Part shown: piece by piece, positions 12,250 to 27,482 of the stretch
Layout: each line of letters begins with the position of its first letter
Numbering within the stretch: position 1 is the first letter of the stretch
Assembly (NCBI GenBank): GCA_041747555.1
Contig: JBGTEY010000013.1
Span: 80,814 to 144,813, forward strand
Direction: 5' to 3'
DNA: 64,000 nucleotides
From: Patescibacteria group bacterium
Lineage (GTDB): Bacteria; Patescibacteriota; Microgenomatia; UBA1400; PJMF01
Made by a program: the position numbers and the translations under genes
Notes under the pieces: model-generated
What the model was told of the DNA's origin: nothing
Database searches by the model: none
The model's input: only the letters and a program-made list of their open reading frames with translations

Positions 12250-13445
12250 TTAAACAGCTGAGCGCCATCATAGCGCTGACACTCGCCTGGCGAGGGGCAT
12301 TATTTTTGCTTTCTAAGACTGCTCAAAGTATTTTGCCCTATGATCCAAGCTTTCCCTATCATGATATAATTTTTTCGCTCTCAAACATACCCCAGTGGAT
12401 ATACTCTTGGGCAAACTTTGATGGAGTTCACTACATCACCCTAGCCAGAAATGGATATGTAGGCACTGGCTTAATTCAAGCTTTTTTTCCGTTATATCCT
12501 GCAGCGATTGCGCTCTTGATTCCTTTGCAGATTTCCTCAATAATTTCTGGGCTGACACTCTCATTTCTAGGTTTGGTGGGCGCCGCTTGCACTCTTTTTC
12601 TCCTAGTTAAAAAGCATTTTACTAGCCGAATTGCATTCTGGTCAGTGATCGGACTTTTACTATTTCCTACATCATTTTTCTTTGCAGCTCTCTACTCGGA
12701 ATCTTTTTTTCTATTTTTTATCCTTCAGGCTCTGTATTGGTATGAAAGGAAGAAATGGTTATTGCTGACAATTTTTATAGGATCGGCGTCTGCTACGCGA
12801 CTGGTTGGAATTGCACTGGTGCCAGTCTTATTACTGGATATTGGATTACAAGATATGAGTTTTAAGGCAAGAACTGTATCAACTAGTAGATACTTGTGGC
12901 AAGGTATGGTTCGCATAATTGATAATTGGACACAAAATGTTCGCGCTGTGATATCTGTGTCTTTAGGGAGCGTGGGGCTACTGGGATATATGACTTACCT
13001 GTATTACACCTTTGGTGATGCATTATATTTTTATCATGTGCAGCCAGAATTCGGAGGTGGGAGAGAGGAGCAAATAGTACTCTTACCACAAGTAATTTTT
13101 CGTACCCTAAAAATTGTGCTTACCGTACCCGTTTCCATCTTGAGAACACCAGTGTACATTCAAGAACTTCTTGCAGGAACTTTGCCACTCATCTTATTGG
13201 CACTGCTCTATAAAAAAGTACCAACAACTTGGCTGGTATTTTCTGCCATTGCACTCCTACTGCCTACTGCTACTGGAACATTTTCAAGCATGCCTCGGTA
13301 CGCGCTCGTAGCATTTCCGTTGTTTGTCGGATTCGGCCTTCTTATGAGAGATCGACCGAAAGTAGGACTGCCACTACTCTTACTCTCGACATTTCTCATG
13401 GTATTTAATACGATACTGTTTATCCAGGGATACTGGGTGGCATAA
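12219..13445 (+). CDS. Polytopic membrane protein, GT-C-like (possibly PIG-V/Mannosyl_trans2- or DUF2029-like mannosyltransferase)
   Basis: Multi-TM with the motif 'WANFDGVHYITLARNGY' after TM1, which resembles the 'D..WY..IA..GY' motif I recall from PIG-V-type mannosyltransferases. Confidence 0.4.
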   Translation: MVSMASNQKVIKQLSAIIALTLAWRGALFLLSKTAQSILPYDPSFPYHDIIFSLSNIPQWIYSWANFDGVHYITLARNGYVGTGLIQAFFPLYPAAIALLIPLQISSIISGLTLSFLGLVGAACTLFLLVKKHFTSRIAFWSVIGLLLFPTSFFFAALYSESFFLFFILQALYWYERKKWLLLTIFIGSASATRLVGIALVPVLLLDIGLQDMSFKARTVSTSRYLWQGMVRIIDNWTQNVRAVISVSLGSVGLLGYMTYLYYTFGDALYFYHVQPEFGGGREEQIVLLPQVIFRTLKIVLTVPVSILRTPVYIQELLAGTLPLILLALLYKKVPTTWLVFSAIALLLPTATGTFSSMPRYALVAFPLFVGFGLLMRDRPKVGLPLLLLSTFLMVFNTILFIQGYWVA

Positions 13446-13451
13446 TCAAGT

Positions 13452-13456
13452 AAGGA
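13452..13456 (+). promoter_or_regulatory. Shine-Dalgarno sequence (AAGGA) for the epimerase gene
   Basis: AAGGA lies 5 nt upstream of the ATG at 13461. Confidence 0.4.
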
Positions 13457-13460
13457 ACGT

Positions 13461-14378
13461 ATGAACATAATTGTTACCGGGGGAGCAGGATTTTTAGGGA
13501 CACATCTTTGTCGAAGACTCGCTCAAGAAGGTCATACTGTAAAAGTTATTGATCTCGTTACAAACCCAGAATTCGAAACAATTATCGCTGATGTCAGAGA
13601 CCGCAATGAAATGATGCGGTATATCAGAGATGCGGAGTTAGTATTTCACCTTGCTGCAAAAATAGAAGCAGGTGAGTCCGTTAAAAATCCTCAACTGTTC
13701 ATAGACCACAATATTACCGGCACACTCTCTGTTTTAGATGCAATGGTGGAGAATGGTGTTTCCTCAATCATATTTTCTTCAACTGCGGCTGTATATGGCG
13801 AGCCAATCAGAGTACCGATCTTCGAAGATGATAGGACAATTCCAATTAATCCCTACGGCATGACCAAACTTGCAGTCGAAGGACTGCTATCATCATATGT
13901 TGCAACACACAATCTAACAGCAATTGCACTGAGATACTTCAATCTTTATGGTCCCGAAGAGCACCATGAGCCTGAAACACATGCTATTCCACGATTTATA
14001 AAACAAATTCATACTAATGAAGAAGTAACTGTGTATGGTTCCGGCGGACACAAACGTGACTATATTTTTATCACTGATGTCGTTGAGGCTCACATTAAGG
14101 CAATTTCACTCTCTGAACAAAAACCACAACAATACCACTACTGTAATTTATCCACACAACGTCCAGCATCGGTACTTGATATCGTAAGGATAATAGAGAG
14201 CGTGATGGAAAAAAAAGCTCAAATTAAGCACTACCCAGAACGACCTGGTGATCCACTTGTGCTCGTTGCTGACGCCAGCAAAGCACAAGAGCTATTAGAA
14301 TGGTCATCTCAAGTTGTTTTGGAGACAGGCTTAAAAGAAACAGTCGACTATTTTCTCAAATTTTGGAATAAATCGTAA
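13461..14378 (+). CDS. NAD-dependent epimerase/dehydratase, UDP-hexose 4-epimerase-like (GalE family)
   Basis: 'MNIIVTGGAGFLGTHL' is a Rossmann GxxGxxG motif and 'YGMTKLAVE' is the SDR catalytic YxxxK. A Shine-Dalgarno AAGGA lies at 13452-13456. Confidence 0.8.
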   Translation: MNIIVTGGAGFLGTHLCRRLAQEGHTVKVIDLVTNPEFETIIADVRDRNEMMRYIRDAELVFHLAAKIEAGESVKNPQLFIDHNITGTLSVLDAMVENGVSSIIFSSTAAVYGEPIRVPIFEDDRTIPINPYGMTKLAVEGLLSSYVATHNLTAIALRYFNLYGPEEHHEPETHAIPRFIKQIHTNEEVTVYGSGGHKRDYIFITDVVEAHIKAISLSEQKPQQYHYCNLSTQRPASVLDIVRIIESVMEKKAQIKHYPERPGDPLVLVADASKAQELLEWSSQVVLETGLKETVDYFLKFWNKS

Positions 14379-15047
14379 ATGAAACGATCAAATATTTGGA
14401 TCCTCATTCCTGGCCTAAACGAAGAAAAGTATATTTCGACGGTTTTAAAAAAAGTTAAAAAACATACAAACAACATTATTGTAATCAGTGATGGCTCGAC
14501 AGATGCAACTGCTCGTATTGCAAAAAAATACACAGATCACGTACTTTCACACTCAATAAATTTGGGCAAGGGCGCAGCGCTCAACACCGGTTGCCAATAT
14601 GCATTTAATAATCTAGGTGCTGAGGCTGTAATTTTTATGGATAGCGATGACCAGCACGACCCCGCTGAAATTGATGACTTTATCGATAAGTTAGAGCAAG
14701 GTGCAAGTGTCGTTTTTGGTGTCCGCTCATTTAATGAACACATGCCATTGTTTCGGATTATTATGAACCGCTTGGCATCAGTAACGATTTACGCATTATT
14801 TGGATCATACATTCCAGACATTCCAAGTGGTTTTAAAGCGCTTTCTAAACATGCTTATTCAAAAATACAGTGGGAGGCACCTGATTACGCAGTTGAGATC
14901 GAAATTGCAGCCAAAGTTGCGAAATACAACATCAAGTATGAAGTAGTTCCAATAAAAACAATTTATCATGACTTCGATCGGGGGGTGACAATTCTCGATA
15001 CAATACATATGATAGCTAGAATACTGAGCTGGAGAATATCACTATGA
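14379..15047 (+). CDS. GT2 polyprenol-phosphate glycosyltransferase (DPM1/GtrB/ArnC-like)
   Basis: 'LIPGLNEE...IIVISDGSTDAT', 'GKGAALNTG' and 'FMDSDDQHDP' match the 'GKGxAl...DaDlqHpP' motifs of the DPM1 family. Confidence 0.7.
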   Translation: MKRSNIWILIPGLNEEKYISTVLKKVKKHTNNIIVISDGSTDATARIAKKYTDHVLSHSINLGKGAALNTGCQYAFNNLGAEAVIFMDSDDQHDPAEIDDFIDKLEQGASVVFGVRSFNEHMPLFRIIMNRLASVTIYALFGSYIPDIPSGFKALSKHAYSKIQWEAPDYAVEIEIAAKVAKYNIKYEVVPIKTIYHDFDRGVTILDTIHMIARILSWRISL

Positions 15048-15373
15048 GCATATTTCAAATTGTGAGTGTTTTATTTGCCCTGTTCTTGATGTATGTTGTC
15101 TCAATTCATCGCCGGAAAGCTAAATTAACTACAACAGAAGTCTCATTTTGGTACTCAATGTGGGCTTTTTTTATAGTTATCGCACTGTTTCCGGGGTTAC
15201 TCCTTGGAATAACACAGCAGCTTCATTTTGCTCGGGTATTTGATTTGCTTGTAGTTGCTGCATTGATGGTGCTTACAATTCTAGTAGTTATCAATTACTT
15301 CACTCAAAAAGAAAATCAAAAAAACTTAGAAAAATTTGTCAGAAAGCAGGCCATTGATGAACAGAATACATAA
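15044..15373 (+). CDS. Small 3-4-TM membrane protein, DUF2304-like accessory to polyprenol-phosphate GT2 enzymes (family name from memory)
   Basis: 109 aa and hydrophobic, sandwiched between two DPM1-like GT2 genes. I recall a conserved small membrane protein in this position next to such GT2 genes and call it DUF2304 from memory. Confidence 0.45.
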   Translation: MSIFQIVSVLFALFLMYVVSIHRRKAKLTTTEVSFWYSMWAFFIVIALFPGLLLGITQQLHFARVFDLLVVAALMVLTILVVINYFTQKENQKNLEKFVRKQAIDEQNT

Positions 15374-16097
15374 AAAAGCAATCTCAAAAACAGTAGTCTC
15401 TGTTATCATGCCTGTGTACAACGAGGAACGAACGATCTCGACTATTATTGAAGAAGTCCATGCATCAGGAGTAAAAAACATTGAATTGATTGTTGTTGAT
15501 GATAATTCTACCGACAACACCAGATCGCTTCTCAAAAAACACAAAAAACAAATTGCTACATTAATTTTACGCAAAACAAATGGTGGCAAAGGCGCTGCAC
15601 TCAGAGATGGCATTGCAGAAGCCACCGGCGATATCGTCCTTATCCAGGACGCAGATCTTGAATACACTCCCCAAGATTATCCTCGACTCCTCCAGCCGAT
15701 TATTGACGATCGCGCCGATGTGGTGTTTGGCTCACGGTTTGTGGGATCACATCCCCATCGAATCGTGTATTTCTGGCATTACATGGCGAATGTTGGACTG
15801 ACGTTACTTTCAAACATTTTTACAAATCTGAATCTTACCGACATGGAAACATGCTACAAAGTATTTCGACGCGAACTTATCCAATCACTTACAATTGAAG
15901 AAAACTCATTCGGCATTGAACCAGAAATCACAGCCAAAATTGCACACATGAAACCTAGAATCTACGAAGTTGGTATAGCGTATTATGGGAGAACATATGA
16001 CGAAGGTAAGAAAATTGGGATTCGTGACGCATTCCGCGCGGTATGGGCAATTGTAAAATATAATCTACTAGCAAGAGCTGGCCGATACTCTTCATAA
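15357..16097 (+). CDS. GT2 polyprenol-phosphate mannosyl/glucosyltransferase (DPM1/GtrB-like)
   Basis: 'VVSVIMPVYNEERTI...ELIVVDDNSTDNT', 'GKGAALRDG' and 'IQDADLEYTPQDYP'. I chose the ATG at 15357 (MNRIHKK...) instead of the track start 15336. Confidence 0.75.
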   Translation: MNRIHKKAISKTVVSVIMPVYNEERTISTIIEEVHASGVKNIELIVVDDNSTDNTRSLLKKHKKQIATLILRKTNGGKGAALRDGIAEATGDIVLIQDADLEYTPQDYPRLLQPIIDDRADVVFGSRFVGSHPHRIVYFWHYMANVGLTLLSNIFTNLNLTDMETCYKVFRRELIQSLTIEENSFGIEPEITAKIAHMKPRIYEVGIAYYGRTYDEGKKIGIRDAFRAVWAIVKYNLLARAGRYSS

Positions 16098-16101
16098 AAT
16101 A

Positions 16102-17118
16102 ATGAGATTATCAAAGAAAAAAATACTGATTACCGGTGCTGGTGGGTTTATTGGATCTCACCTCGTAGATGTATTGATTGAAAAAAAATTGAAATCTCAG
16201 CTACTCTTGATGCTTCTTCCTGATGAACCAATGGATAATCTTCTCCATCATCCGGATTTAGAAATTGTGAGAGGAGATATCAGAGACGCTAATTTCATCA
16301 ATAAAATTATGAAAAATGTTGGGCTCGTGTATCATCTAGCGGCCCGAATCGATTTTGATGGAAAAACCTATGCCGAGTACGAAGATGTTAACGTCACTGG
16401 CACGCGCAATTTAGTAGATGCAGCAATCCGAGAAAAAGTTCAGAAATTTATTTTCTACAGCAGCATTGGGGTACATGGTTTGCCCGCAGGCATAGGAAAT
16501 ATTGAGAATTGGGATGAATTACATCCACCGACATACACCAATTTTTATGGCCAATCAAAATGGGAAGCAGAGGAGTACATCAGAGATGCTCACGCAAAAT
16601 CTGGTCTGGCGTATACCATTATCAGACCTGCAAGTGTGTATGGCCCAAGAGAGAAAGGTCCAACACTTGCGCTCTATAGGGCTATAAAAAATGGTCATTT
16701 CGCAATAATTGGCACTGGCAAAAACAAAATGCACTATGTGTATGTCAGAGATCTAGTCGAAGCAACCTACCTTGCGGGCACCTCACCAAATATTTCGGGT
16801 GAGTACATTATTGCTGGCGCAGAACCAACTACATTTACCGATGTGGTAAAGCACGTTGCGCTGAGCTGCAATGCAAAAATACCAACCCGCTCGATTCCTC
16901 TTTTTATTGCAAACATCTTGGCATACGTCGCGCAATGTATTATGAGCGTAACGGGCATGACACTACCAATTTTTCCCTCACGTGTTCGCACGATGACGAC
17001 TTCGTATTTTTACAATATTTCTAAAGCTAAAAAAGAATTGGGATATCAGCCAAAGGTCACTTTTGCGAAGGGTGCAAAATTAACCGGCGACTGGTATCTC
17101 GAGCATAATTATTTATGA
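16102..17118 (+). CDS. NAD-dependent epimerase/dehydratase (extended SDR, nucleotide-sugar modifying)
   Basis: 'KILITGAGGFIGSHLVDVL' and 'YGQSKWEAE' (YxxxK). Confidence 0.75.
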   Translation: MRLSKKKILITGAGGFIGSHLVDVLIEKKLKSQLLLMLLPDEPMDNLLHHPDLEIVRGDIRDANFINKIMKNVGLVYHLAARIDFDGKTYAEYEDVNVTGTRNLVDAAIREKVQKFIFYSSIGVHGLPAGIGNIENWDELHPPTYTNFYGQSKWEAEEYIRDAHAKSGLAYTIIRPASVYGPREKGPTLALYRAIKNGHFAIIGTGKNKMHYVYVRDLVEATYLAGTSPNISGEYIIAGAEPTTFTDVVKHVALSCNAKIPTRSIPLFIANILAYVAQCIMSVTGMTLPIFPSRVRTMTTSYFYNISKAKKELGYQPKVTFAKGAKLTGDWYLEHNYL

Positions 17119-18176
17119 GGCCAAAAACAAAACAGCCGCATGTATCTGTCATCGTTGTCACATATAATGCAGCGCCGTACATAAAAAAATGCATTGCATC
17201 GATACTTGCAAACACATTTTCAGATTTTGAATTGATCGTATTTGACAATGTGTCGACAGATACTACAACAAAGCTTGCAGCTTCTTTTTCAGACCCACGC
17301 ATACAAATTCATACTGCATCACATAACCTTGGATATGCCGGTGGTAACAATGCTGCGATTGCACTGAGTAAAGGTGCATACGTATGTGTTCTTAACCCAG
17401 ACGTGATTGTTGGTAAGAGGTTTTTGGAAGGCATGGTGTCAGAGCTTACAGCGGATCCAACGGTAGCAGCATGTCAACCATTGGTCTATTTTTATGATGG
17501 AAAAAAAATTAATCTCACCGGGATTTCTCCCCAATTTTTAGGGTTTAATGATCTTAATAATTTTGATTCAGAAATAATTCCCAAAAAAGGAGACATTACT
17601 GCTTTTAGTGGCTCTGGGTTCATGATTCGAAAAACAGTACTTGAGAGAGTCGGAACATTCGATGAGCAGTACTTCATGTACTTTGAAGATAGCGACCTTT
17701 CATGGAGAATTCGATTGGCGGGGCAAACCATTAGGTTTGTTCCAGAGAGCACAATGCGACATGACTACAAATACACACCCAGTAACACAAGCCAATCCAT
17801 GATGCGAAAACTGTTTTTTTATGAACGAAATCGATTACTCACGCTCTTTAAAAATTACTCACCAAAATTACTCATTCTCTCAGCACCTGCACTCATACTC
17901 ACTGAAATCGGCATGATTGCCAAGTCTTTAGTTGAGGGCTGGCTTGGCACTAAACTCCGAACGTATGTAAGCGCAACTAGTCTTATTCCCCACGTTTTAA
18001 CTTGTAGAAAAAACATAGCGCGATTCCGCCAGCTGTCTGACAGAGAAGTTATTCGCGATCTCAAACCAGAAATTACCTTTAAAAAATTTCAAACTACTGC
18101 AGTCACCACAGTGCTCAATCCCTTCCTCAAGGCATACTTCGCTGGAGTGTCATGGGTTGTGAGAGTCACCTCATGA
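17115..18176 (+). CDS. Glycosyltransferase family 2
   Basis: 'VSVIVVTYNAAPYIKKCIASI', 'VLNPDV' and 'YFEDSDLSWR' place it in the GT2 rhamnosyltransferase-like subfamily. Confidence 0.7.
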   Translation: MRPKTKQPHVSVIVVTYNAAPYIKKCIASILANTFSDFELIVFDNVSTDTTTKLAASFSDPRIQIHTASHNLGYAGGNNAAIALSKGAYVCVLNPDVIVGKRFLEGMVSELTADPTVAACQPLVYFYDGKKINLTGISPQFLGFNDLNNFDSEIIPKKGDITAFSGSGFMIRKTVLERVGTFDEQYFMYFEDSDLSWRIRLAGQTIRFVPESTMRHDYKYTPSNTSQSMMRKLFFYERNRLLTLFKNYSPKLLILSAPALILTEIGMIAKSLVEGWLGTKLRTYVSATSLIPHVLTCRKNIARFRQLSDREVIRDLKPEITFKKFQTTAVTTVLNPFLKAYFAGVSWVVRVTS

Positions 18177-19330
18177 AAATACTTCAAGTGTGCTCCTATC
18201 TCTATCCAGCGCTCGCATACGGAGGTCCCGCAAAGGCTGTGCATGATCTCTCCAAGGAACTTTCAAAAAACCATTCGGTAACTATCTATACAGGAGATTC
18301 TTGGGATGAGACACGGAGATTGCGTGCAGATGAAAAATTACAGTCCTCAAAAAATTTCGAGGTGCTGTATTTTAGAAACATTTTAAATTCAATCGCATAC
18401 CGCTTGCGATTGTTTACTTGTTTCGGAATGGTTTTCAATTATTTGCGAGACTACAAACAATATGATGTGGTGCATATTCATGATGTGTTTATTTTTCCAC
18501 AATTTCTGATAGCATTTTTTGCAAAATTTTTTTCTGTACCGTATGTAATTTCTCCCCACGGAATTCTTGATCCAACACGGATGCATAAAAAATCCACTAT
18601 TAAAAAAATCTTGTGGCCAATTGCGCAGAGCGCTTTACAGAACGCAACGGCAGTAGTTGCTGTCTCTAATCAGGAAGCAGACGATCTCAAGACACTTGGG
18701 TTTAAGAACGTTACTACTATATTTAATGGGGCTCCCATTCCACAAATTGATCCAGAGAAAAAAGTATCCAATCGATTCAATCTCACGAAAGATCCTAAAT
18801 ATTTGACACTGCTGTACATTGGAAAACTCCATCCGCAAAAAGGATTATTGGAACTGCTTCAGGCTGTGAATATGAGCCGTACGTCTATCAAAGTACTGGT
18901 GGCTGGGCCAGATGATGGAGCGCTGCGATCACTAAAAACCTACTGCAGCGATGTTGGTCTACAACATGTGCATTTTTTAGGTCTAGTTGATGATTTAGAG
19001 AAGCAGTATTTGTTTTCGATAGCTGATATTTTTATGTATCCATCGTACGCCGAGGGGTTTTCAATTAGTATTCTCGAAAGCATGAGTGCAGCCGTACCTG
19101 TTATTATTACAGAAGGGTGCAACTTCCCGCTGGTTGCAGAGCGGCAAGCTGGATTCATCGTAAAACTCAAGAATCTTGATAAAAATATTGCAGCTATTTT
19201 GAATTCAAAGAACATAAAGCGGGAAACACTCAAAAAATTCGGTAAAAACGCTCGCACACTAGTAATCGAACAATTTTCAATATCTACTGCTGCGCAAAAG
19301 CATGTAAGGCTATATGAAAAAATCGCATAG
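18173..19330 (+). CDS. Glycosyltransferase family 4
   Basis: 'MKILQVCSY...YGGP' and 'EGFSISILESMSAAVPVIITEG'. I chose the ATG at 18173 (ATGA overlap) instead of the track start 18152. Confidence 0.75.
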   Translation: MKILQVCSYLYPALAYGGPAKAVHDLSKELSKNHSVTIYTGDSWDETRRLRADEKLQSSKNFEVLYFRNILNSIAYRLRLFTCFGMVFNYLRDYKQYDVVHIHDVFIFPQFLIAFFAKFFSVPYVISPHGILDPTRMHKKSTIKKILWPIAQSALQNATAVVAVSNQEADDLKTLGFKNVTTIFNGAPIPQIDPEKKVSNRFNLTKDPKYLTLLYIGKLHPQKGLLELLQAVNMSRTSIKVLVAGPDDGALRSLKTYCSDVGLQHVHFLGLVDDLEKQYLFSIADIFMYPSYAEGFSISILESMSAAVPVIITEGCNFPLVAERQAGFIVKLKNLDKNIAAILNSKNIKRETLKKFGKNARTLVIEQFSISTAAQKHVRLYEKIA

Positions 19331-20273
19331 TATTAATTTCTACGGAATCAACTGCACCCTCACATCAGAAAATGAGCAGTTTGCTTCAATTTTTAATCAA
19401 AAATTTAGTGGATTTAAAGAGGGCGCCACCTATGCATTTGATACACAGTCTCTGGAGATTTTATTTCAGCATAGTCGAGCAGAATATCCGACTCCTACCA
19501 AAGTAAGTAGTCACACCTGGAGGGGTGACGGTATTCTAAAAATTCGGCATAATTATCTCTCATCCTCATGTGACGTGTACTTTTTTTACAATACTTCTCA
19601 CCAGCTCACAAAAATTCTGTTGTGCTACAGTGAATCCATAATCTTTAAACTGCTTAATGCTGCAATTGGTAGTAAGCTGCGAAGACAACTATTCCAAATC
19701 CTACTTAAACTTTATATTGAGCAATCCATTCTTTGGCAGCTCTGTTCGCAACATGATATGCGATGCTTGCACGCCGCTGCAATCGAAGAGAAGGGCGCAG
19801 TGCAAATCCTGGCTGGAATGAATGGAGTAGGAAAAAGTACTAAAGCATTGCAGTTAACACAAGTGAACAAATCGCGACTATATGCAGACAATTATCTACT
19901 AGTGAACAAAACACACGCCTATTTCTCTCCTGATTCAGTGAGACTTGATTCTAAAAGTATCAAACTGTTGCAATTGAATGCCGAAGGAGACTTTGGCTTT
20001 GGTAAAAAAACCGTTGCCATACCGTCCGAAGTTTTTTCTAAGATCCTGAGAGCACCGATTAAGCATATTTCTCGCATCACACTTGCAGAACATGAATCCA
20101 AGAAGAAATCTTCAAAGCAATCAGTGGTTCAAAAAATTTTAATAGATCAACTTATTCACCAAGAAGAAATCCTCGTTGCCCCTGTATCGCAAATTGGAGA
20201 GAAGTTTGATATAACTACTACGTTGTATCCAGATTGCGAGTATTTTGACTGGGAAATCGAACGAACTTCATGA
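19314..20273 (+). CDS. HPr-kinase C-terminal-domain-like P-loop kinase (HprK-related), function unknown
   Basis: 'LHAAAIEEKGAVQILAGMNGVGKSTKALQLTQ...RLYADNYLLV' aligns to the HprK Walker A region 'GVLITGDSGVGKSETALEL...LVADDRV'. Confidence 0.55.
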   Translation: MKKSHSINFYGINCTLTSENEQFASIFNQKFSGFKEGATYAFDTQSLEILFQHSRAEYPTPTKVSSHTWRGDGILKIRHNYLSSSCDVYFFYNTSHQLTKILLCYSESIIFKLLNAAIGSKLRRQLFQILLKLYIEQSILWQLCSQHDMRCLHAAAIEEKGAVQILAGMNGVGKSTKALQLTQVNKSRLYADNYLLVNKTHAYFSPDSVRLDSKSIKLLQLNAEGDFGFGKKTVAIPSEVFSKILRAPIKHISRITLAEHESKKKSSKQSVVQKILIDQLIHQEEILVAPVSQIGEKFDITTTLYPDCEYFDWEIERTS

Positions 20274-21337
20274 AAAAAATCTACAATGTTCCGTTTGCAC
20301 AAATTGCCCTTCATTCAGCCCCAGCTCGGGTAGAGAAGTTTTTCTCATCCTTACTATTCTCGCTCCCCAAACCTAGTGACATTCGTTTTTCTGTTGATCT
20401 TTTTTTTGAAAAAATCACTGACAATGCTTCCTCAGGCAAACTTGAGAAAAGGAGTGCCCGAGTAGGGAATGATTTCTACATTTTGGATACCAAACAAAAT
20501 CGAGCAAAAATTAACTTTCATGAGTTTTCTGATAAAAAAATCAAGCTATCTGTTGATCCAAATTTTGACCTCTACTATCTATACACATTTGTTGTCGAGC
20601 CACTTCTAGTAATTTGGTCCGCAAGTCACGATGTTGCTTACCTCCACGCTAGCGCAACTGAACAAAACGGTGAAGCAACAGTATTTTGTGCCTGGAGAAA
20701 CACAGGAAAAACCAACCAAATCCTCAAGCGATGTCAAGAGGGTCATAACTTTATGGGCGACGACTACTGCATAGTGTCTGAAAAAAATGTGTATCTCTAT
20801 CCCAAAACTATCAACGTTTTCTCATACAACCTGAAAGCATTTCCAGCAATTTTTTCTACACTACCAATGGCAACTGCACTGCGACTTAAAATAACTATGG
20901 CACTTAAATCTTCACTCCACTCACTTTCGCAGATTACCACTGGTGGTCTTGCAAAAATATTGTATCGGATTTCAGAGCTCGCCGAAATTTCTACAAATAT
21001 AAAGCTCACACCAAGCATGCTACACTCGAGCGTAACGTGCTCAGCTCAGTTAAAATCGATGTCCATTCTCCTCAAAACCGACAGTAGTGACAAGGAGTCC
21101 AGCGCACTATCTAAATCAGAAGCAGTCCAAAAGTTAAGAACAATTCAGTTGTATGAGCTCAAAGACTTTTTCGAAATTTTTGCTCAGTATCAATTTTTAT
21201 TTTCAAGCCATACTGAGTCAGTAGCTCAGATTATTAATTTTTCTAAGCAATACGCATCTGCTTTAAGTAAAAACGTATCTTCTGTAACTCTGTCACCAGT
21301 GTTTTCAAAAAAAATAATTGATCGGAACAATATATGA
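20270..21337 (+). CDS. HprK-C-like kinase paralog with a divergent Walker A
   Basis: Colinear with the previous ORF: 'LHASATEQNGEATVFCAWRNTGKTNQIL...FMGDDYCIV' against LHAAAIEEKG/GMNGVGKST/YADNYLLV. The P-loop first Gly is replaced (AWRNTGKT). Confidence 0.5.
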   Translation: MKKIYNVPFAQIALHSAPARVEKFFSSLLFSLPKPSDIRFSVDLFFEKITDNASSGKLEKRSARVGNDFYILDTKQNRAKINFHEFSDKKIKLSVDPNFDLYYLYTFVVEPLLVIWSASHDVAYLHASATEQNGEATVFCAWRNTGKTNQILKRCQEGHNFMGDDYCIVSEKNVYLYPKTINVFSYNLKAFPAIFSTLPMATALRLKITMALKSSLHSLSQITTGGLAKILYRISELAEISTNIKLTPSMLHSSVTCSAQLKSMSILLKTDSSDKESSALSKSEAVQKLRTIQLYELKDFFEIFAQYQFLFSSHTESVAQIINFSKQYASALSKNVSSVTLSPVFSKKIIDRNNI

Positions 21338-22404
21338 TTGCAATCCTCACGGGAACTCGGCCAGAAATAATCAAAATCGCACCTGTCTTGCGAGAATTAC
21401 GGAAAAGAAACATTCCTCACATTTTCATTCACTCGAACCAACATTACTCTAAAGAGATGGATGCAACAATCATAAAAGATCTCAATCTCCCCACTCCAGA
21501 CTATAATTTTGGCGTCGGATCTGGATCGCACGCTGTTCAGACGGGCAAAATTATGGAACACGTTGAGACACTCTGCAATGAAGTCAAACCACAAATTCTC
21601 GTCGTTCATGGTGACACAAATACCACACTCGCGGGTGCGCTCGCAGCCAAAAAAGTTCACACGCCTGTGGCACATATAGAAGCCGGTCTCAGAAGCTTTG
21701 ACTATCGAATGCCCGAAGAAATCAATAGAACCATTGTCGATAGGATAAGTGACGTACTTCTCGCACCTACCAAACAAGCCAAAGCAAATCTTAAAAAAGA
21801 AGGAATCACCGGTAAAAAAGTAGTAGTAACCGGTAACACTGTTGTTGACGCACTTAGACAGCATGTTGCTCTAACAAAAAAGTCAAATATCCTGAATAAA
21901 AACAATTTAGAGGAAAATAAGTATATTCTAGTGACCGCACACCGTGCAGAAAATGTCGACACCAAGCCTGCTCTCGAAAAACTAGTTGCGCTCCTCAATC
22001 ACGCGCAAAATAAAACTAATCTCCCGATCTATTGGCCGCTTCACCCAAGAACAAAACAACGCCTCGAAGAGTTTAATATCAAACTTTCAAAGAAAATAAC
22101 TACCAGTAAACCAATTGGGTACATTGACATGCTAACAGTACTCAATAATGCAAATGTAGTTCTCACTGATTCAGGCGGCATCCAAGAAGAAGCCTTTATA
22201 CTCAAAAAACCACTGATCACTTTACGCGACTCAACGGAACGCCCAGAAACTCTCACCGCAAACTTTGTCGTGCACACCAGCAAGAAAAAATTTGATGAAG
22301 CACTTAAAGCATATGGTGATGAAGCAGTAGAGTGGACGGACGCGCTTGGTGATGGTCTGGCAAGCACTCGCATTGTAGACGCACTTTTGAAATTTATTAC
22401 CTGA
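21334..22404 (+). CDS. wecB: UDP-N-acetylglucosamine 2-epimerase (non-hydrolysing)
   Basis: 'MIAILTGTRPEIIKIAPV', 'VVHGDTNTTLAGALAA' and 'HIEAGLRS' are hallmark WecB/MnaA motifs. Confidence 0.9.
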   Translation: MIAILTGTRPEIIKIAPVLRELRKRNIPHIFIHSNQHYSKEMDATIIKDLNLPTPDYNFGVGSGSHAVQTGKIMEHVETLCNEVKPQILVVHGDTNTTLAGALAAKKVHTPVAHIEAGLRSFDYRMPEEINRTIVDRISDVLLAPTKQAKANLKKEGITGKKVVVTGNTVVDALRQHVALTKKSNILNKNNLEENKYILVTAHRAENVDTKPALEKLVALLNHAQNKTNLPIYWPLHPRTKQRLEEFNIKLSKKITTSKPIGYIDMLTVLNNANVVLTDSGGIQEEAFILKKPLITLRDSTERPETLTANFVVHTSKKKFDEALKAYGDEAVEWTDALGDGLASTRIVDALLKFIT

Positions 22405-22414
22405 GGAACTGTAC

Positions 22415-23656
22415 ATGACTGCTCAATCAAATCGCACACAAGTTATTGGCCTCGGTTACATCGGGCTACCCACCGCACTCCTCTTGGCGGATACGGGACT
22501 TGAAGTAATTGGAGTTGATGTCGATCAGAATAAGATTAACGCCTTAAAAGCAAACAAATTATACTTCAATGAACCTGGACTAGAAAAGCTTTATACAAAG
22601 GCGCAAGATAAAAAGTTCTCTGCTGGGAGTACAGTGCAGCCCTCAGACACCTTTGTGATCGCCGTCCCCACACCTCAGAATGCGGGCACAGCAGACCTAA
22701 CATATGTCATAAGTGCTCTCAGATCGATTGAACCAGTTTTTCAACCAGGTAACTTGATTGTTATTGAATCCACCGTAGGTCCCAGAGATTGTGTCGATCA
22801 CATACTCCCACTGATAAAAAAATGGAACAAACCATTTTTATTCTCCCATTGTCCTGAACGAGCAATACCAGGGAATACACTCCACGAAATGGTCCATAAT
22901 GACCGCATAATCGGCGGAATTGATGAAGAGAGCAGGCAAGTTACCAAAGCTTTGTATGCATCATTTGTAAAAGGAAACATCTATCTCACCGACCCAACAA
23001 CCGCCGCCGCATGCAAAGTTATGGAAAACACCTATCGTAGTGTCAATATTGCACTCGCCAACGAATTCGCAAAATTAGCAGAAAGACTTGATTTTAATTG
23101 CTGGGAAGCGATCGAACTTGCCAATAAGCACCCAAGAGTTCAAATTCACAGTCCTGGGCCGGGAGTTGGTGGTCACTGTATTCCGATCGATCCATGGTTT
23201 TTTGTTCGGGAGCAGCGTTCTGAAGAAAGTCTAATACGTCACGCGCTAGAAATTAATACTAAAATGGCGAATCATGTTGTGGAGGCAGTTTCTGAAGCGA
23301 TCAAGTTGCTTGCTATTTCTAATCCAACAATCGGAATTCTAGGAGTTGCGTACAAAAAAAATGTTGACGATGCGCGCGAAACACCAGCCGCAAGGATTGC
23401 TGAGTTATTTTCTGAAAAATTCCAAGTACTCATGACCGATGAGCACGTCAAACAAGATGATCTTAAATCGCTCGAGCAAGTACTTTCAACGTGTAGCGTA
23501 ATTGTGCTGGTGACAGATCACGACCAATATGCTGAAATAAACTTTTCAGAGTATCCAAATATTAAACTCGTCTATGACACCAGAAACTGCATTTCAGCAA
23601 ACGCGTTTGACAACTCATCCGCAGTCCACTTGACCATCGGAAAGAAATCTTCATGA
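22415..23656 (+). CDS. wecC: UDP-N-acetyl-D-mannosamine dehydrogenase (UDP-glucose/GDP-mannose dehydrogenase family)
   Basis: 'QVIGLGYIGLPTALLLA', 'VIGGI', 'NKHPRV' and 'PGPGVGGHCIPIDPWF' match WecC closely, and the gene follows wecB immediately. Confidence 0.85.
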   Translation: MTAQSNRTQVIGLGYIGLPTALLLADTGLEVIGVDVDQNKINALKANKLYFNEPGLEKLYTKAQDKKFSAGSTVQPSDTFVIAVPTPQNAGTADLTYVISALRSIEPVFQPGNLIVIESTVGPRDCVDHILPLIKKWNKPFLFSHCPERAIPGNTLHEMVHNDRIIGGIDEESRQVTKALYASFVKGNIYLTDPTTAAACKVMENTYRSVNIALANEFAKLAERLDFNCWEAIELANKHPRVQIHSPGPGVGGHCIPIDPWFFVREQRSEESLIRHALEINTKMANHVVEAVSEAIKLLAISNPTIGILGVAYKKNVDDARETPAARIAELFSEKFQVLMTDEHVKQDDLKSLEQVLSTCSVIVLVTDHDQYAEINFSEYPNIKLVYDTRNCISANAFDNSSAVHLTIGKKSS

Positions 23657-24816
23657 ACATCCTCATCGTCTCAGATTATTTTCAACCAAAAATTGGGTAT
23701 GCAAAACCTCAAGTAGCTAAGGCATTGCAAACGGCGGGACACACAGTTGAAGTACTTACATCAGAACGCTACTTTCCATTTCATAATTACGAAAATAGCG
23801 TACAAAAAACAATTGGTAAAAGAATTCGCTCCGTTGGGACAAAGATGGAAAATGGAATCAAAGTAACGCGAAAAAAAACAATTTTTGAATACTTCACGAG
23901 AACCTATTTTGAAGACTTAGAGTCTGAATTAGTAAAACGAAAACCTGATTTGGTAATTGTGTTTGGCATGAGTTCTCCAAGCATGGTGCGGGTTGCACGA
24001 CTTAAGTATAAACATAAATTCAAGTTAACCGCTGTAGATAGTCATTTACCATCTGAACTGAGTCAAGGTAACGCATTTTTTAAGCAAATTTTTTACGGAG
24101 TCTTCAGATTACTATTTTCTAAAACTATCAGTCAATCACTCGACGTATGTGTAGCGCTACAAGACGATACAACCCAAGTTATTAGAGAGACGTTTGGTAT
24201 TAAAAAAAATGTTACCGTAGTTCCAAATGGTACAAATATCGAACAGTTTCAATACACCAAAACTGGTGCCGCCAAGGTTAAAAAGGACTTCCACATACCT
24301 AGAAACAAAACTATCATCATGTATTCAGGTAAAATAATCAAAGAAAAAGGAGTCCACTTACTTGCCGCGGCGTTTGCTAAGATAATAAGTAAAAATAAAA
24401 ACGTCCACTTACTCCTTGTTGGTGATGGCCCAAAAGAATACATCGATCAAGTTAAGAATACCCTAGAAAAGCATTCTGGTACGCTCACCATAACAGGCTT
24501 CCAACCTCACGAATCAATGCAAAATTTCTATTCAGCAGCTGATATTGCTGTATGGCCGCTCCAGGAATCTCTGGCTATGGTCGATGCTGCTGCGTGCTCT
24601 ATACCGTTCATTGCAAACGACACGCTTGGTGATAAAACAAGAATTAGCAACAATAATGCATTGTTATACAAAAAAGAAAATCTAAACGATTTAGTAGAAA
24701 AAATTACAAGATTAGTTACTGACCCAGAATTAAGGAAACAAATGGGAAAACGCGGCAGAACATTAGTAGAAAACACATTATCATGGAACGCATTATGCTT
24801 ACGATTTTTACCCTAA
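23653..24816 (+). CDS. Glycosyltransferase family 4 (candidate ManNAcA transferase by position; inference)
   Basis: GT4-like N-terminus 'MNILIVSDYFQPKIGY' and a C-terminal GT-B half; ATGA overlap with wecC. Confidence 0.65.
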   Translation: MNILIVSDYFQPKIGYAKPQVAKALQTAGHTVEVLTSERYFPFHNYENSVQKTIGKRIRSVGTKMENGIKVTRKKTIFEYFTRTYFEDLESELVKRKPDLVIVFGMSSPSMVRVARLKYKHKFKLTAVDSHLPSELSQGNAFFKQIFYGVFRLLFSKTISQSLDVCVALQDDTTQVIRETFGIKKNVTVVPNGTNIEQFQYTKTGAAKVKKDFHIPRNKTIIMYSGKIIKEKGVHLLAAAFAKIISKNKNVHLLLVGDGPKEYIDQVKNTLEKHSGTLTITGFQPHESMQNFYSAADIAVWPLQESLAMVDAAACSIPFIANDTLGDKTRISNNNALLYKKENLNDLVEKITRLVTDPELRKQMGKRGRTLVENTLSWNALCLRFLP

Positions 24817-25538
24817 AAGTTATTTCACAGCTACAGAGTAGACTTGAGAAAATGAGACATTATTTTCTCAGCAATAACTCGTCAATTGAGCTCTTTCCTT
24901 TGCTCAAAAATAATAGCTATCAATTTAAGCCAAACGGCGTGTATCTTCGTCGTTTTCAAGCACATGTGTCTGCTATCCCGGGTATGATCACCGATGTGGA
25001 GGCAAATGCTTTGCTTCAAATTTGTGCAACTCAAACCATGCGTGGCGATGTCGTTGAAATCGGTAGTTGGTTGGGCAAGTCCACGGTACATCTGGCTCAG
25101 GGGTGTTCGATCGCTGGTAACGGAATTGTGCATGCAGTTGACACATTCAAAGGCAACCCAGGAAAAGAGCATATGTACAAAGCACCCCTTGCAGATCACG
25201 AGACCATTTATAGTAGATTTAAACTGCACGTATCACGCGCAGGAGTCACAAAGCAGGTAAAAGTGCACAAAATGACATCCGAATCTGCAAAAAAACTAAT
25301 CAGAAAAAAACTCCGCCTCGTTTTCATTGATGGGTGCCACGAATATGAGCCAGCCTTGAAGGACATTCGCTGGTGGGGTAAAAAACTTCAGCCAGGCGGG
25401 TTGCTACTCCTTGATGACTTTACACATCAATTTCCCGGTGTAATTAAAGCAGTCCAAGAAGAAATAATAGAGAAACCAGACGACTTTACGGTGCTGTATC
25501 AATACGACTCACTTTTGGTAGTCAAAAAAAATGATTGA
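24783..25538 (+). CDS. Class I SAM-dependent O-methyltransferase, TylF/CmcI/Methyltransf_24-like
   Basis: 'VVEIGSWLGKST' is SAM-binding motif I of Methyltransf_24, and 'VFIDGCHEYE' matches the 'DGdHsYe' motif of TylF-type sugar O-methyltransferases. Alternative starts lie at 24795 and 24852. Confidence 0.6.
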   Translation: MERIMLTIFTLKVISQLQSRLEKMRHYFLSNNSSIELFPLLKNNSYQFKPNGVYLRRFQAHVSAIPGMITDVEANALLQICATQTMRGDVVEIGSWLGKSTVHLAQGCSIAGNGIVHAVDTFKGNPGKEHMYKAPLADHETIYSRFKLHVSRAGVTKQVKVHKMTSESAKKLIRKKLRLVFIDGCHEYEPALKDIRWWGKKLQPGGLLLLDDFTHQFPGVIKAVQEEIIEKPDDFTVLYQYDSLLVVKKND

Positions 25539-26616
25539 CAACACTGTCCCTATCACCAGAGCAGTTTCTTGGCTCAAACGCGCGCAAGACGCCACCCCTG
25601 ATGGTGGTGTATCTGCTTGGTTTTCACTAATTAACGGTTGGCAACCCTCATACATTGAAACAACGGGTTACATTATCAATACGTTTTTTGCATGTAGCGA
25701 ACGACTTGAAGATCCCGATCTCTATGAGCGAGCAGTTCGAATGACAGATTTTCTCGTAGAAATGCAACACAAAAATGGCGGATATCGTGCCTATGGACCA
25801 GATCAGGGAGATTCTGAACGGGTCGTAGTCTTTAACACAGGTCAAGATTTACTGGGTATGTGCAAGGCATATGAAAAAACTGGTGACGAAAAGTATCGTG
25901 ACTCAGCGCACAAAGCTGCAAAATTCTTAGCAAGTATTCAAGAAAAAAATGGTTCATGGATCTCGCACACTTTTGGAAACAAACCGCACACCTACCATAC
26001 TCGAGTAGCTTGGGGGATGCTTAAGGTCGCAGAGATTACCTCAGAACATTCTATTAAAAAAGCAGCAGAAAAAACTCTTGAGTGGGCCTCTAAACAACAG
26101 CATCAGAATGGATGGTTTGCTCAAAATGAACTTGAACACCCCAAGGTCAGAGAGCCCTTTACCCACACTATTTCATATGCCATTGAAGGATTTTTGTGGT
26201 CAGGGATTTTGCTTAATCGCCCTGATTTAATTACGGTGGCATTGCGAGGCGCAACCCCATTACTTAATTATTATCTTGAACACAACAAACTACCCGCAAC
26301 TTTTAATAAACATTGGCAAACCAATGATCGCTATGAATGCTTGACGGGAAATGCACAAATTTCTTTGATGTGGCTCAAACTTTACCAGCTCACGGGTGAT
26401 TGGCGTTTTAGAACAGGTGGAGTGAAAATGAATACTCAACTTAGAAATGTACAATCCAAAAGCATTTTAACCTCAATTGATGGTGCCATTGCCGGAAGCG
26501 CACCAATCTGGGGAGATATAGCAAGAAATGTCGGCTACTGCAGATTGGCATACCCAAATTGGGCAGTCAAGTTTTATATAGATGCGCTACTAGAGGAGGG
26601 GTATGTTAGTTATTAA
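25531..26616 (+). CDS. (alpha/alpha)6-toroid repeat protein, prenyltransferase/squalene-oxidase-repeat-like
   Basis: Repeated 'Q-x-x-NG-[GSW]' units (MQHKNGGY, IQEKNGSW, QQHQNGWF) spaced about 45-60 aa apart, like the QW/terpenoid-cyclase-type repeats. I found no recognisable catalytic motif. Confidence 0.4.
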   Translation: MIDNTVPITRAVSWLKRAQDATPDGGVSAWFSLINGWQPSYIETTGYIINTFFACSERLEDPDLYERAVRMTDFLVEMQHKNGGYRAYGPDQGDSERVVVFNTGQDLLGMCKAYEKTGDEKYRDSAHKAAKFLASIQEKNGSWISHTFGNKPHTYHTRVAWGMLKVAEITSEHSIKKAAEKTLEWASKQQHQNGWFAQNELEHPKVREPFTHTISYAIEGFLWSGILLNRPDLITVALRGATPLLNYYLEHNKLPATFNKHWQTNDRYECLTGNAQISLMWLKLYQLTGDWRFRTGGVKMNTQLRNVQSKSILTSIDGAIAGSAPIWGDIARNVGYCRLAYPNWAVKFYIDALLEEGYVSY

Positions 26617-27478
26617 ACAACTCAAAAAATTACTGACACATTCAAACTGCAAAGATAAAAAAATTCTGACGATTCTCAAAGTAATACTGTGGAAATTCAA
26701 TCAACTCACCTTTAAAAAACCAATAATTTCACCATTTTCTGACAGTACCAAACTTGTCTGTTATCCGGATAGTTCGTATGGTGGCTATGTTTTTTTTGCT
26801 CGATATCCAGAAGTTGAAGAAATGGATTTTATAAAAAGCATTGTGAGCGATTCTGACACGATTATCGACGTTGGAGCAAACATTGGGGCAATTACCGTAC
26901 TTGCAGCATCAAAGGCTCTAAAGGGCCACGTCCACGCCTTTGAACCCACACCAGAGCTCATTCCCAGGATTCATGAAAATGTAGCCCTCAACAACCTCTC
27001 TGAGCGGGTCACAATCAACCAGCTTGCCGTTGGCGACGAAAACGGCACAATTCAATTCACACAGGGATCGCATTCTGAAGTAAATAAAATTTATAAAAGA
27101 GAATCTGGTGACAATACCAAGACTTTAGATGTACGAAGCATTACGCTCGACACGTATGCTAAAAATACCAAAATACGCCATATTCATCTTCTAAAAGTCG
27201 ATGTTGAGGGCGCTGAACTGTTGGTCTTTAGGGGCGCAAAATCTATTCTAAGAAGCACAGATGTTATTGTGTTTGAAGTAAATAAAAACTGCACACAATT
27301 TGGGTATACAGCTGATGAACTCGTTGATCACATTCGCACCAAAGGTTTCTTTGTATTCGCACTCACCTCAGTCAAACTCGTCCTTATCAATCAGCTCGGG
27401 TCAATCAATCAAACAATCAATTTAGTTGCAGTCAAAAAAACACCACAAGCAGTTTCAAAGATTACGCACTACCTCTAA
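26603..27478 (+). CDS. FkbM-family SAM-dependent methyltransferase
   Basis: 'IIDVGANIGAITVLAA' and 'AFEPTPELIPRIHENVALNNL...LAVGDENGTIQF' are typical of the FkbM domain. Confidence 0.7.
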   Translation: MLVIKQLKKLLTHSNCKDKKILTILKVILWKFNQLTFKKPIISPFSDSTKLVCYPDSSYGGYVFFARYPEVEEMDFIKSIVSDSDTIIDVGANIGAITVLAASKALKGHVHAFEPTPELIPRIHENVALNNLSERVTINQLAVGDENGTIQFTQGSHSEVNKIYKRESGDNTKTLDVRSITLDTYAKNTKIRHIHLLKVDVEGAELLVFRGAKSILRSTDVIVFEVNKNCTQFGYTADELVDHIRTKGFFVFALTSVKLVLINQLGSINQTINLVAVKKTPQAVSKITHYL

Positions 27479-27482
27479 AACC

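What the first reader, a model, noticed from the sequence alone, without database searches (positions are those of the whole stretch)
19314..21337. Tandem paralogous HprK-C-like P-loop kinases embedded in a glycan-assembly operon
The two adjacent ORFs (319 and 355 aa) are colinear paralogs. The first has an HprK-type Walker A and flanking residues (LHAAAIEEKGAVQILAGMNGVGKSTKALQL...RLYADNYLLV); the second has a divergent P-loop (AWRNTGKT) and a 'GDDYCIV' box. Both overlap their neighbours by 4 nt (ATGA), so they are co-translated with GT4 and wecB/wecC. HprK-related kinase pairs (A/B) are otherwise known from peptide-maturation contexts, not glycan clusters. Here, next to multiple methyltransferases and a Wzm/Wzt exporter, they could phosphorylate a glycan, a lipid-linked intermediate or a sugar. 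That would be loosely analogous in outcome to the WbdD kinase-methyltransferase terminator of ABC-dependent O-antigens, but built from a different kinase fold. One active and one degenerate P-loop suggests a catalytic/regulatory heterodimer.
Basis: partly seen in the sequence, partly recalled or inferred. Interest (0 to 1): 0.8.

Follow-up and report, generated by a model that had tools for sequence, protein, structure and literature searches.

The report
Paired kinase-like genes in sugar-coat operons
Two neighbouring genes in a cell-surface sugar-polymer operon encode ancient sister proteins with the ATP-binding fold of HPr kinase and PEP carboxykinase; the same unnamed, unstudied pair recurs in sugar-polymer and flagellin-glycosylation gene clusters of many bacteria, and it most likely adds phosphate to a sugar.

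Summary

Three points need correcting:
- B is not degenerate. AWRNTGKT fits Walker A, and B keeps the His and Asp-Asp of HprK. A has an invariant Asp-Asn at that site.
- B occurs without A in some lineages. A was never seen without B.
- The GT4/A overlap is 17 nt, not 4.

Neither protein reaches any curated family threshold, and no source names them. A profile of B finds 1461 clusters at 50% identity (440 at E<=1e-10). Every context sampled was a glycoconjugate locus (GC 26-70%): CPR surface-polymer clusters, Wzx/Wzy clusters with NeuB and cytidylyltransferase genes, and a flagellin-Maf island. The order is always A-B, sometimes A-B-B', and once B and B' are fused.

Best reading: a heteromeric ATP-dependent phosphotransferase acting on a sugar or glycan intermediate, with B catalytic and A an accessory subunit. 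The substrate is unknown. A WbdD-like chain-terminator role is not favoured.

The parts
19314..20273 (+). ORF-A, 319 aa: the A-type subunit, with a PEPCK-like N-terminal domain and an HprK/PEPCK-type P-loop domain
19770..19892 (+). A-type active-site motifs: H153 (19770-19772), Walker A GMNGVGKST (19815-19841), D192-N193 (19887-19892)
   Evidence: Coordinates checked. Invariant in the A family and in distant A-types from other phyla. ADN aligns with HprK ADD.
20270..21337 (+). ORF-B, 355 aa: the B-type subunit and likely catalytic one; same two-domain fold plus a helical insertion (residues 185-241) and a helical C-terminal region
20645..20764 (+). B-type active-site motifs: H126 (20645-20647), Walker A AWRNTGKT (20690-20713), D164-D165 (20759-20764)
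   Evidence: Coordinates checked. H126, A141, W142, R143, G146, K147, D164 and D165 are invariant, and T145 and T148 nearly invariant, in 22 homologs. H126, G146 and K147 are invariant, and D164 and T148 at least 90% conserved, in 36 distant relatives. The family profile aligns H..GKT..DD with HprK H..GKS..ADD.
18152..19330 (+). GT4 glycosyltransferase (392 aa) immediately upstream; its end overlaps the A start by 17 nt. It is the most constant neighbour of the module in CPR-type loci.
   Evidence: Pfam Glycos_transf_1 and Glyco_transf_4. An ortholog sits directly upstream of A (or of B where A is absent) in 10 of the 13 distinct CPR-type loci: L001, L002, L004, L006, L008-L010, L012, L014, L015. 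In L024 a 512-aa Glycos_transf_1 protein holds that position. L011 has a GT2 upstream instead, and L016 is too short to tell.
21334..23656 (+). WecB (21334-22404) and a WecC-type UDP-ManNAc dehydrogenase (22415-23656) downstream. The WecB start overlaps the B stop (ATGA).
   Evidence: TIGR00236 353 bits against a cutoff of 210; TIGR03026 379 bits against 189.8. Pfam. Junction sequence.
8746..28190 (+). A 20-gene plus-strand operon with no intergenic gap above 15 nt. It contains the module together with GT2/GT4 genes, a PpgS-like GT2 with DUF2304, epimerases, three methyltransferases and an alpha/alpha-toroid protein.
   Evidence: Gaps and overlaps computed. Domain assignments. The terminator and promoter scan found nothing above chance.

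Best explanation
ORF-A and ORF-B are the two subunits of a conserved hetero-oligomeric, ATP-dependent phosphotransferase. It belongs to the PEPCK/HprK P-loop fold and is dedicated to glycoconjugate biosynthesis. B is the catalytic subunit. Its Walker A (AWRNTGKT) binds ATP, and H126 and D164-D165 sit where HprK and PEPCK have their catalytic or metal-binding His and Asp-Asp. B transfers the gamma-phosphate to a hydroxyl, or to an existing phosphate, on a sugar, a sugar precursor or a nascent glycan unit. In this operon that acceptor is probably the product or the acceptor of the GT4 encoded just upstream. A is an ancient paralog that still binds nucleotide: its Walker A, His and first Asp are intact. 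It carries an invariant Asn in place of the second Asp, so it more likely positions the substrate, regulates B, or performs a different half-step. Shown here: the fold, the paralogy, motif conservation, the gene order and the glycan-locus association. Inferred: kinase activity, the division of labour between A and B, the hetero-oligomer and the carbohydrate acceptor.
Against: There is no biochemical evidence. Neither protein reaches any curated family threshold. The acceptor is not identified. The closest characterised sequence relatives (HprK, lasso-peptide kinases) act on protein or peptide serines, not on sugars. The roles assigned to the two Asp residues rest on my recollection of the HprK and PEPCK literature; the relevant papers could not be retrieved. 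No complex prediction could be run. The variety of glycan loci means the substrate may differ between clades. B-only lineages show that A is not universally required.
Confidence: 0.5

Rival explanations
1. A/B is a protein or peptide serine kinase in the manner of HprK or the lasso-peptide kinases. It would phosphorylate a glycosyltransferase, an export component or a small peptide to regulate glycan assembly.
For: The nearest characterised sequence relatives act on Ser of HPr or of lasso-precursor peptides (PMC8498205). A paralog with an altered catalytic residue could act as a regulatory subunit.
Against: No HPr-like or precursor-peptide gene, and no lasso-maturation gene, was found among the annotated neighbours. 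The full-length structural match, including the N-terminal domain, is to PEPCK, a small-molecule enzyme, rather than to HprK, where only 110-125 residues align. B's best NCBIfam hit is FomB, a small-molecule phosphate kinase. In distant loci the module sits inside sugar-precursor operons, next to a cytidylyltransferase, a NeuB-like synthase and a PseG-like protein.
Confidence: 0.2
2. A/B would be a WbdD-like chain-length terminator that caps the non-reducing end of an ABC-transporter-exported polymer with phosphate, which a neighbouring methyltransferase would then methylate.
For: The window has Wzm/Wzt (29703-31230, minus strand) and three methyltransferases. L002 and L024 also pair the module with ABC-2 exporters.
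Against: The module also occurs where no ABC exporter is seen: Wzy plus GT4 (L018), Wzx or Wzz with NeuB (L020-L023), and flagellin-Maf (L025). The window's Wzt is 245 aa with only the ABC_tran domain, so it has no cap-recognising module. The cluster also encodes a Wzx-type flippase.
Confidence: 0.1
3. A/B carries out PEPCK-like or other non-kinase chemistry on a PEP/oxaloacetate-type or sugar-acid substrate. Alternatively it is an NTPase scaffold with no transfer to a carbohydrate.
For: PEPCK is the best structural match for both proteins. Several distant loci contain PEP-dependent NeuB-like synthases.
Against: The proteins are about 200 residues shorter than PEPCK. PEPCK family models score 17.7 bits against a cutoff of 369. 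The window cluster has no NeuB. The strictly conserved His/Lys/Asp-Asp set argues against a purely structural role.
Confidence: 0.1
4. They are bona fide HprK/P carbon-catabolite regulators, or chance or decaying ORFs.
For: Only the weak Hpr_kinase_C hit of A (E 0.012).
Against: That hit is below the Pfam gathering score, and B has no hit. No HprK N-terminal domain was detected. Both are conserved in order and in motifs across phyla, with confident folds.
Confidence: 0.02

Closest known systems
HPr kinase/phosphorylase (HprK/P; Pfam PF07475, TIGR00679)
   Different: The window proteins score below the family threshold (15.6 against 33.3 bits for A; no hit for B). They lack the HprK N-terminal domain and have a PEPCK-like N-domain instead. 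They are encoded in glycan operons as a paralog pair, and A has DN instead of DD.
ATP-dependent PEP carboxykinase
   Different: PEPCK is about 200 residues longer and only 11-14% identical. PEPCK family models score far below their cutoffs. Nothing in the context suggests gluconeogenesis.
HprK-related kinase A / B (TIGR04352 / TIGR04355) and the lasso-peptide kinases (PadeK, ThcoK, SyanK)
   Same: These are the best NCBIfam hits for A. Most distant relatives of B also hit these models weakly. They too come in A and B flavours. SyanK-type enzymes also phosphorylate a phosphate.
   Different: Scores are 15-29 bits against cutoffs of 200. No peptide-maturation genes are nearby, and the context here is glycan biosynthesis.
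FomB (phosphonate monophosphate kinase; NF000361)
   Same: It is the best NCBIfam hit for B (E 1.9e-5, aligned over the helix, His and P-loop region). It is of similar length (325 aa) and has a small-molecule acceptor.
   Different: B scores 23.9 bits against a cutoff of 400. There are no phosphonate-pathway genes nearby.
WbdD (kinase-methyltransferase terminator of E. coli O9a O-antigen)
   Same: It offers a possible analogy of outcome: a kinase encoded in a glycan cluster that also has methyltransferases and an ABC exporter.
   Different: Its fold is different: a eukaryotic-like protein kinase, from my own knowledge. The module here is not tied to ABC-exporter loci, and Wzt has no cap-binding domain.

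Membership tests
HPr kinase/phosphorylase (PF07475 / TIGR00679) | Score at or above the Pfam gathering threshold for Hpr_kinase_C | tested here: not met
   A scores 15.6 bits against 33.3 (E 0.012). B has no hit at E<=10.
HPr kinase/phosphorylase (PF07475 / TIGR00679) | P-loop catalytic-domain fold of the PEPCK-like topology | tested here: met
HPr kinase/phosphorylase (PF07475 / TIGR00679) | Catalytic motif set: His, Walker A GK[ST], and Asp-Asp on beta2 | tested here: inconclusive
   B has all of them (H126, K147, T148, D164, D165). A has H153, K174, S175 and D192, but N193 replaces the second Asp.
HPr kinase/phosphorylase (PF07475 / TIGR00679) | N-terminal HprK domain, and HPr as the substrate | tested here: not met
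   No Hpr_kinase_N hit. The N-terminal halves align structurally with PEPCK, not with HprK (244-251 against 110-134 aligned residues). The HPr substrate cannot be tested here.
HprK-related kinase A / B (TIGR04352 / TIGR04355) | Score at or above the curated cutoff (200 bits) | tested here: not met
   A scores 28.8 and 21 bits. B scores 15.4 bits.
HprK-related kinase A / B (TIGR04352 / TIGR04355) | Peptide-maturation neighbourhood (a PqqD-like protein, a nucleotidyltransferase, precursor peptides) | tested here: not met
   The window neighbours are GTs, epimerases, WecB/WecC and methyltransferases. The family's usual context is my recollection and was not verified.
FomB family phosphonate monophosphate kinase (NF000361) | Score at or above the curated cutoff (400 bits) | tested here: not met
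   B scores 23.9 bits and A 16.7 bits.
ATP-dependent PEP carboxykinase | Family-model score, and full length of about 510-540 aa | tested here: not met
WbdD-type O-antigen terminator | A eukaryotic-like kinase domain fused to a SAM methyltransferase, coupled to a Wzt with a cap-binding domain | tested here: not met
   Neither A nor B has a protein-kinase or methyltransferase domain. The fold is PEPCK/HprK. Wzt is 245 aa with ABC_tran only.
New A-B(-B') glycan-locus module (defined here) | An A-type gene (…GK[ST]…DN) directly upstream of a B-type gene (AW..GKT…DD), on the same strand, in a glycoconjugate locus | tested here: met
   Met by the window and by 16 other distinct loci.

The most novel reading that the evidence does not exclude
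A-B(-B') is a widespread, so far unrecognised class of heteromeric sugar or glycan kinase built on the PEPCK/HprK fold. It would install phosphate, or a pyrophosphate linkage, on sugar precursors such as nonulosonic-acid or ManNAc-derived units, or on nascent surface glycans. It would be used from CPR/Patescibacteria envelopes to flagellin glycans. The A subunit would be a conserved pseudo-kinase-like partner.
Probability: 0.3. Interest if true: 0.75.

Novelty: new variant of a known kind. Interest (0 to 1): 0.6.

Why it matters
The PEPCK/HprK topology is a small outlier branch of the P-loop world: ECOD lists only three family groups in it (PMC7758060). Its known members act in central metabolism, carbon-catabolite signalling, phosphonate resistance and peptide tailoring. 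A large, unnamed branch exists (1461 clusters at 50% identity). In every locus sampled it sat in a surface-glycan or flagellin-glycosylation locus, nearly always as a fixed A-B pair. That points to an uncharacterised step in glycoconjugate biosynthesis. It would also give a handle on the almost unknown envelope chemistry of CPR/Patescibacteria. The invariant Asp-to-Asn change in A offers a natural test case for how paralogous pseudo-enzyme partners arise.

Tried and rejected
- The exact-sequence look-up of ORF-A's contig found nothing on record. Cluster-member look-ups gave no names or accessions.
- The B profile against PDB sequences gave only noise. The link to HprK appeared only with a profile of distant relatives.
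- The afdb50 fold library was not available.
- The Rfam scan of the window found nothing. The promoter and terminator scan was at chance level.
- Literature searches found nothing linking this fold to glycan clusters. They combined HprK-related kinases with polysaccharide, flagellin glycosylation, FomB, PEPCK Asp269 and ScmC.
- The paeninodin-kinase and HprK structure papers are not held.
- 'Degenerate B' was rejected on motif and distribution grounds. 'True HprK' and 'chance ORFs' were rejected on thresholds and on conservation.
Full report
**Observation.**
The two ORFs are exactly as described: ORF-A at 19314-20273 (319 aa) and ORF-B at 20270-21337 (355 aa), both on the plus strand.
- The quoted motifs are present. 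A has H153, Walker A 168-GMNGVGKST-176 and 190-ADN-193. B has H126, 141-AWRNTGKT-148 and 163-GDD-165.
- The two proteins are significantly similar. BLASTP gives 25% identity over 79 residues around the P-loop, E 2e-8. Profiles built from their homologs align over 209 columns with 95.4% probability, E 1.9e-8.
- A/B and B/WecB overlap by ATGA. The GT4/A overlap is 17 nt, not 4.
- They lie inside a run of 20 plus-strand genes (8746-28190) with no gap longer than 15 nt.

**Surroundings.**
- The operon encodes four GT2 and three GT4 glycosyltransferases and two SDR epimerase/dehydratases.
- It has a PpgS/AglJ-like polyprenyl-phosphate-sugar synthase next to a DUF2304 membrane protein.
- It has a non-hydrolysing WecB (353 bits against a cutoff of 210) and a WecC-type NDP-sugar dehydrogenase.
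- It also encodes three methyltransferases and an alpha/alpha-toroid protein.
- On the minus strand lie a Wzx-like flippase and a Wzm/Wzt pair.
- Wzt is only 245 aa with a bare ABC_tran domain.
- Almost the whole 64-kb window is glycan machinery.

**Family tests.**
Neither protein is a member of any curated family.
- A hits Pfam Hpr_kinase_C at 15.6 bits, below the gathering score of 33.3. B hits nothing.
- In NCBIfam the top hits are all far below their cutoffs. For A they are HprK-related kinase A (28.8 bits against 200), kinase B, PEPCK and FomB. For B they are FomB (23.9 against 400) and HprK_rel_A.
- No source in the 5.8-billion-protein collection gives any homolog a name other than 'hypothetical protein'.

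**Fold.**
AF2 models built on the homolog alignments are confident: pLDDT 90.7 and 89.8, pTM 0.89 and 0.87.
- The A profile finds the PEPCK HxSA...GLSGTGKT stretch at E 5.7e-5.
- A profile of distant B relatives aligns H..AW..GKT..sDD with HprK H..GDSGIGKS..vADD.
- A alone aligns rclHaaa..GmnGvGKS..yADN with L. casei HprK sMHgvl..GdSGvGKS..iADD.
- HprK and PEPCK share an outlier P-loop topology, in which the Walker-B Asp sits at the tip of beta2 (PMC7758060).

The fold claim is therefore supported. The architecture is best described as a mini-PEPCK rather than as HprK.

**Which subunit is active?**
The data point the other way.
- B's AWR[NH]TGKT satisfies [AG]x4GK[ST].
- In 22 homologs, H126, K147 and D164-D165 are invariant and T148 is nearly so. 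In 36 relatives of about 20% identity, H126, G146 and K147 are invariant and D164 is at least 90% conserved.
- A has a classical Walker A, the His and the first Asp. It has an invariant Asn where HprK, PEPCK and B have the second Asp.
- From my own knowledge, not verified here, the second Asp is the proposed general base in HprK (Asp179) and a metal ligand in E. coli PEPCK (Asp269). Asp269Asn PEPCK mutant structures are in the PDB list.
- The Asn is fixed in every A-type sequence from 26% to 66% GC. It is therefore a selected feature and not decay.

**Distribution and gene order.**
- Word-indexed searches find only 10 A and 22 B homologs.
- An exhaustive profile search with B finds 1461 clusters at 50% identity at E<=1e-3, 440 at E<=1e-10 and 37 at E<=1e-30.
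- I examined 27 loci, about 22 of them distinct.
- In the close clade the block GT2(PpgS-like)-DUF2304-(GT2)-epimerase-GT2-GT4-A-B is conserved at 30-45% identity, usually followed by WecB/WecC/GT4. Genome hits for this clade are Candidatus Paceibacterota (CPR) MAGs, plus two MAGs labelled Pseudomonadales with 30% GC.
- One sub-clade has B alone, directly after a GT4: L006/7, L014 and L024.
- More distant pairs occur in a Wzy-GT4-A-B-GT4 locus.
- In a 66% GC EPS locus an A-type gene precedes a 729-aa B-B' fusion.
- Three low-GC loci (26-33%) read A-B-B'-cytidylyltransferase-NeuB/PseI-like synthase-PseG-like, and one of them, L021, starts with WecB-WecC.
- One flagellin-DUF8042-Maf-A-B-cytidylyltransferase island was found.
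- The most distant B-like protein (70% GC) sits beside a Bac_transf initiating transferase, a BY-kinase-like ATPase, a GT4 and a GT2.
- In all 17 distinct loci that contain A, it lies immediately upstream of B on the same strand. A-type proteins in distant loci still score higher with the A profile than with the B profile, and B-types the reverse. The A/B duplication is therefore ancient, and both copies have been kept.

**Interpretation.**
- The strict pairing, the overlapping reading frames, the retention of both paralogs and the natural fusion of two modules all argue for a hetero-oligomer. None of them proves it.
- B has the complete catalytic set and can exist alone, which makes it the likely catalytic subunit. 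A is a nucleotide-binding accessory or pseudo-kinase-like partner.
- Every characterised member of this fold transfers phosphate from ATP or PPi. The acceptors are HPr-Ser for HprK, enolpyruvate for PEPCK, a phosphonate phosphate for FomB, and peptide Ser or phospho-Ser for the lasso-peptide kinases (PMC8498205). ATP-dependent phosphotransfer is therefore the parsimonious chemistry.
- The module recurs in chemically different glycoconjugate loci, including Maf-type flagellin glycosylation, which (from my own knowledge) uses CMP-activated sugars directly. A soluble sugar or nucleotide-sugar acceptor, or a sugar just added by the neighbouring GT4, is therefore more likely than a cap on an ABC-exported polymer.
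- The WbdD analogy is weakened for that reason. The bare Wzt weakens it further.
- A regulatory protein- or peptide-kinase role remains a real alternative, which I put at about 0.2.

**Novelty.**
The fold and the general chemistry are known. What is new is a large unnamed family with a fixed A-B(-B') organisation, a diagnostic DN/DD split, and association with a glycan locus in every context sampled, including CPR bacteria. I found no publication describing it within the searchable library. I rate it a new variant of a known kind, of moderate-to-good interest. The main gap is biochemical: the acceptor is unknown.

Noticed in passing
window 14379-15373 and 10576-12249 (also 3659-5281 and 33297-35375): A PpgS/AglJ-like 222-aa GT2 is followed by a DUF2304 membrane protein. 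Several large GT-C-like membrane proteins (PTPS_related, PMT_2) are also present. This looks like a polyprenyl-phosphate-sugar decoration system of the mycobacterial PpgS/Rv3632/Rv3779 kind (the comparison is from memory). The GT2-DUF2304 pair is conserved in nearly all CPR-type loci.
   Followed up: partly
L009 and L010 (CAZUHV010000002.1, CAZDWQ010000015.1): Two MAGs titled 'uncultured Pseudomonadales' carry the same CPR-type cluster at 43-45% identity and have only 30-31% GC. The taxonomic label looks doubtful.
   Followed up: no
L011 9980-11090 (Candidatus Pacebacteria CG10, PFDK01000010.1): The B-type gene is split into two overlapping ORFs. This may be a frameshift, a pseudogene or an assembly error. 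The A-type gene upstream is intact.
   Followed up: no
L020 8001-10190 (protein P0067): This is a 729-aa natural fusion of two B-type modules. The second module's P-loop reads GWKQMAKT, so the Gly before Lys is lost. That suggests a degenerate second site in this lineage.
   Followed up: partly
window 12219-13445, 25531-26616 and 6945-8699: These are conserved cluster proteins with no assigned function. One is a 408-aa protein with no family hit. One is a 361-aa alpha/alpha-toroid protein (weak Pec_lyase and SQHop_cyclase hits) that nearly always travels with an FkbM-type methyltransferase. One is a 584-aa protein with no Pfam hit.
   Followed up: no
window 28193-31230 (minus strand): The cluster carries both a Wzx-type flippase and a Wzm/Wzt ABC-2 exporter side by side. 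This suggests two export routes, or two glycans, encoded in one island. A 692-aa PMT_2-like membrane protein (33297-35375) lies about 2 kb beyond the ABC exporter, past two plus-strand genes. Unannotated proteins of the same size (696 and 692 aa) occur in L002, next to its exporter, and in L024, several genes away from its exporter; their homology to the window protein was not tested.
   Followed up: no
L017 2531-3805 (minus strand): Next to the most distant B-like gene lies a protein with weak NTP_transf_5 and AAA_28 hits. From memory, NTP_transf_5-type nucleotidyltransferases accompany HPr-kinase homologs in phosphoglycosylated lasso-peptide clusters. This is a possible evolutionary bridge.
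   Followed up: no
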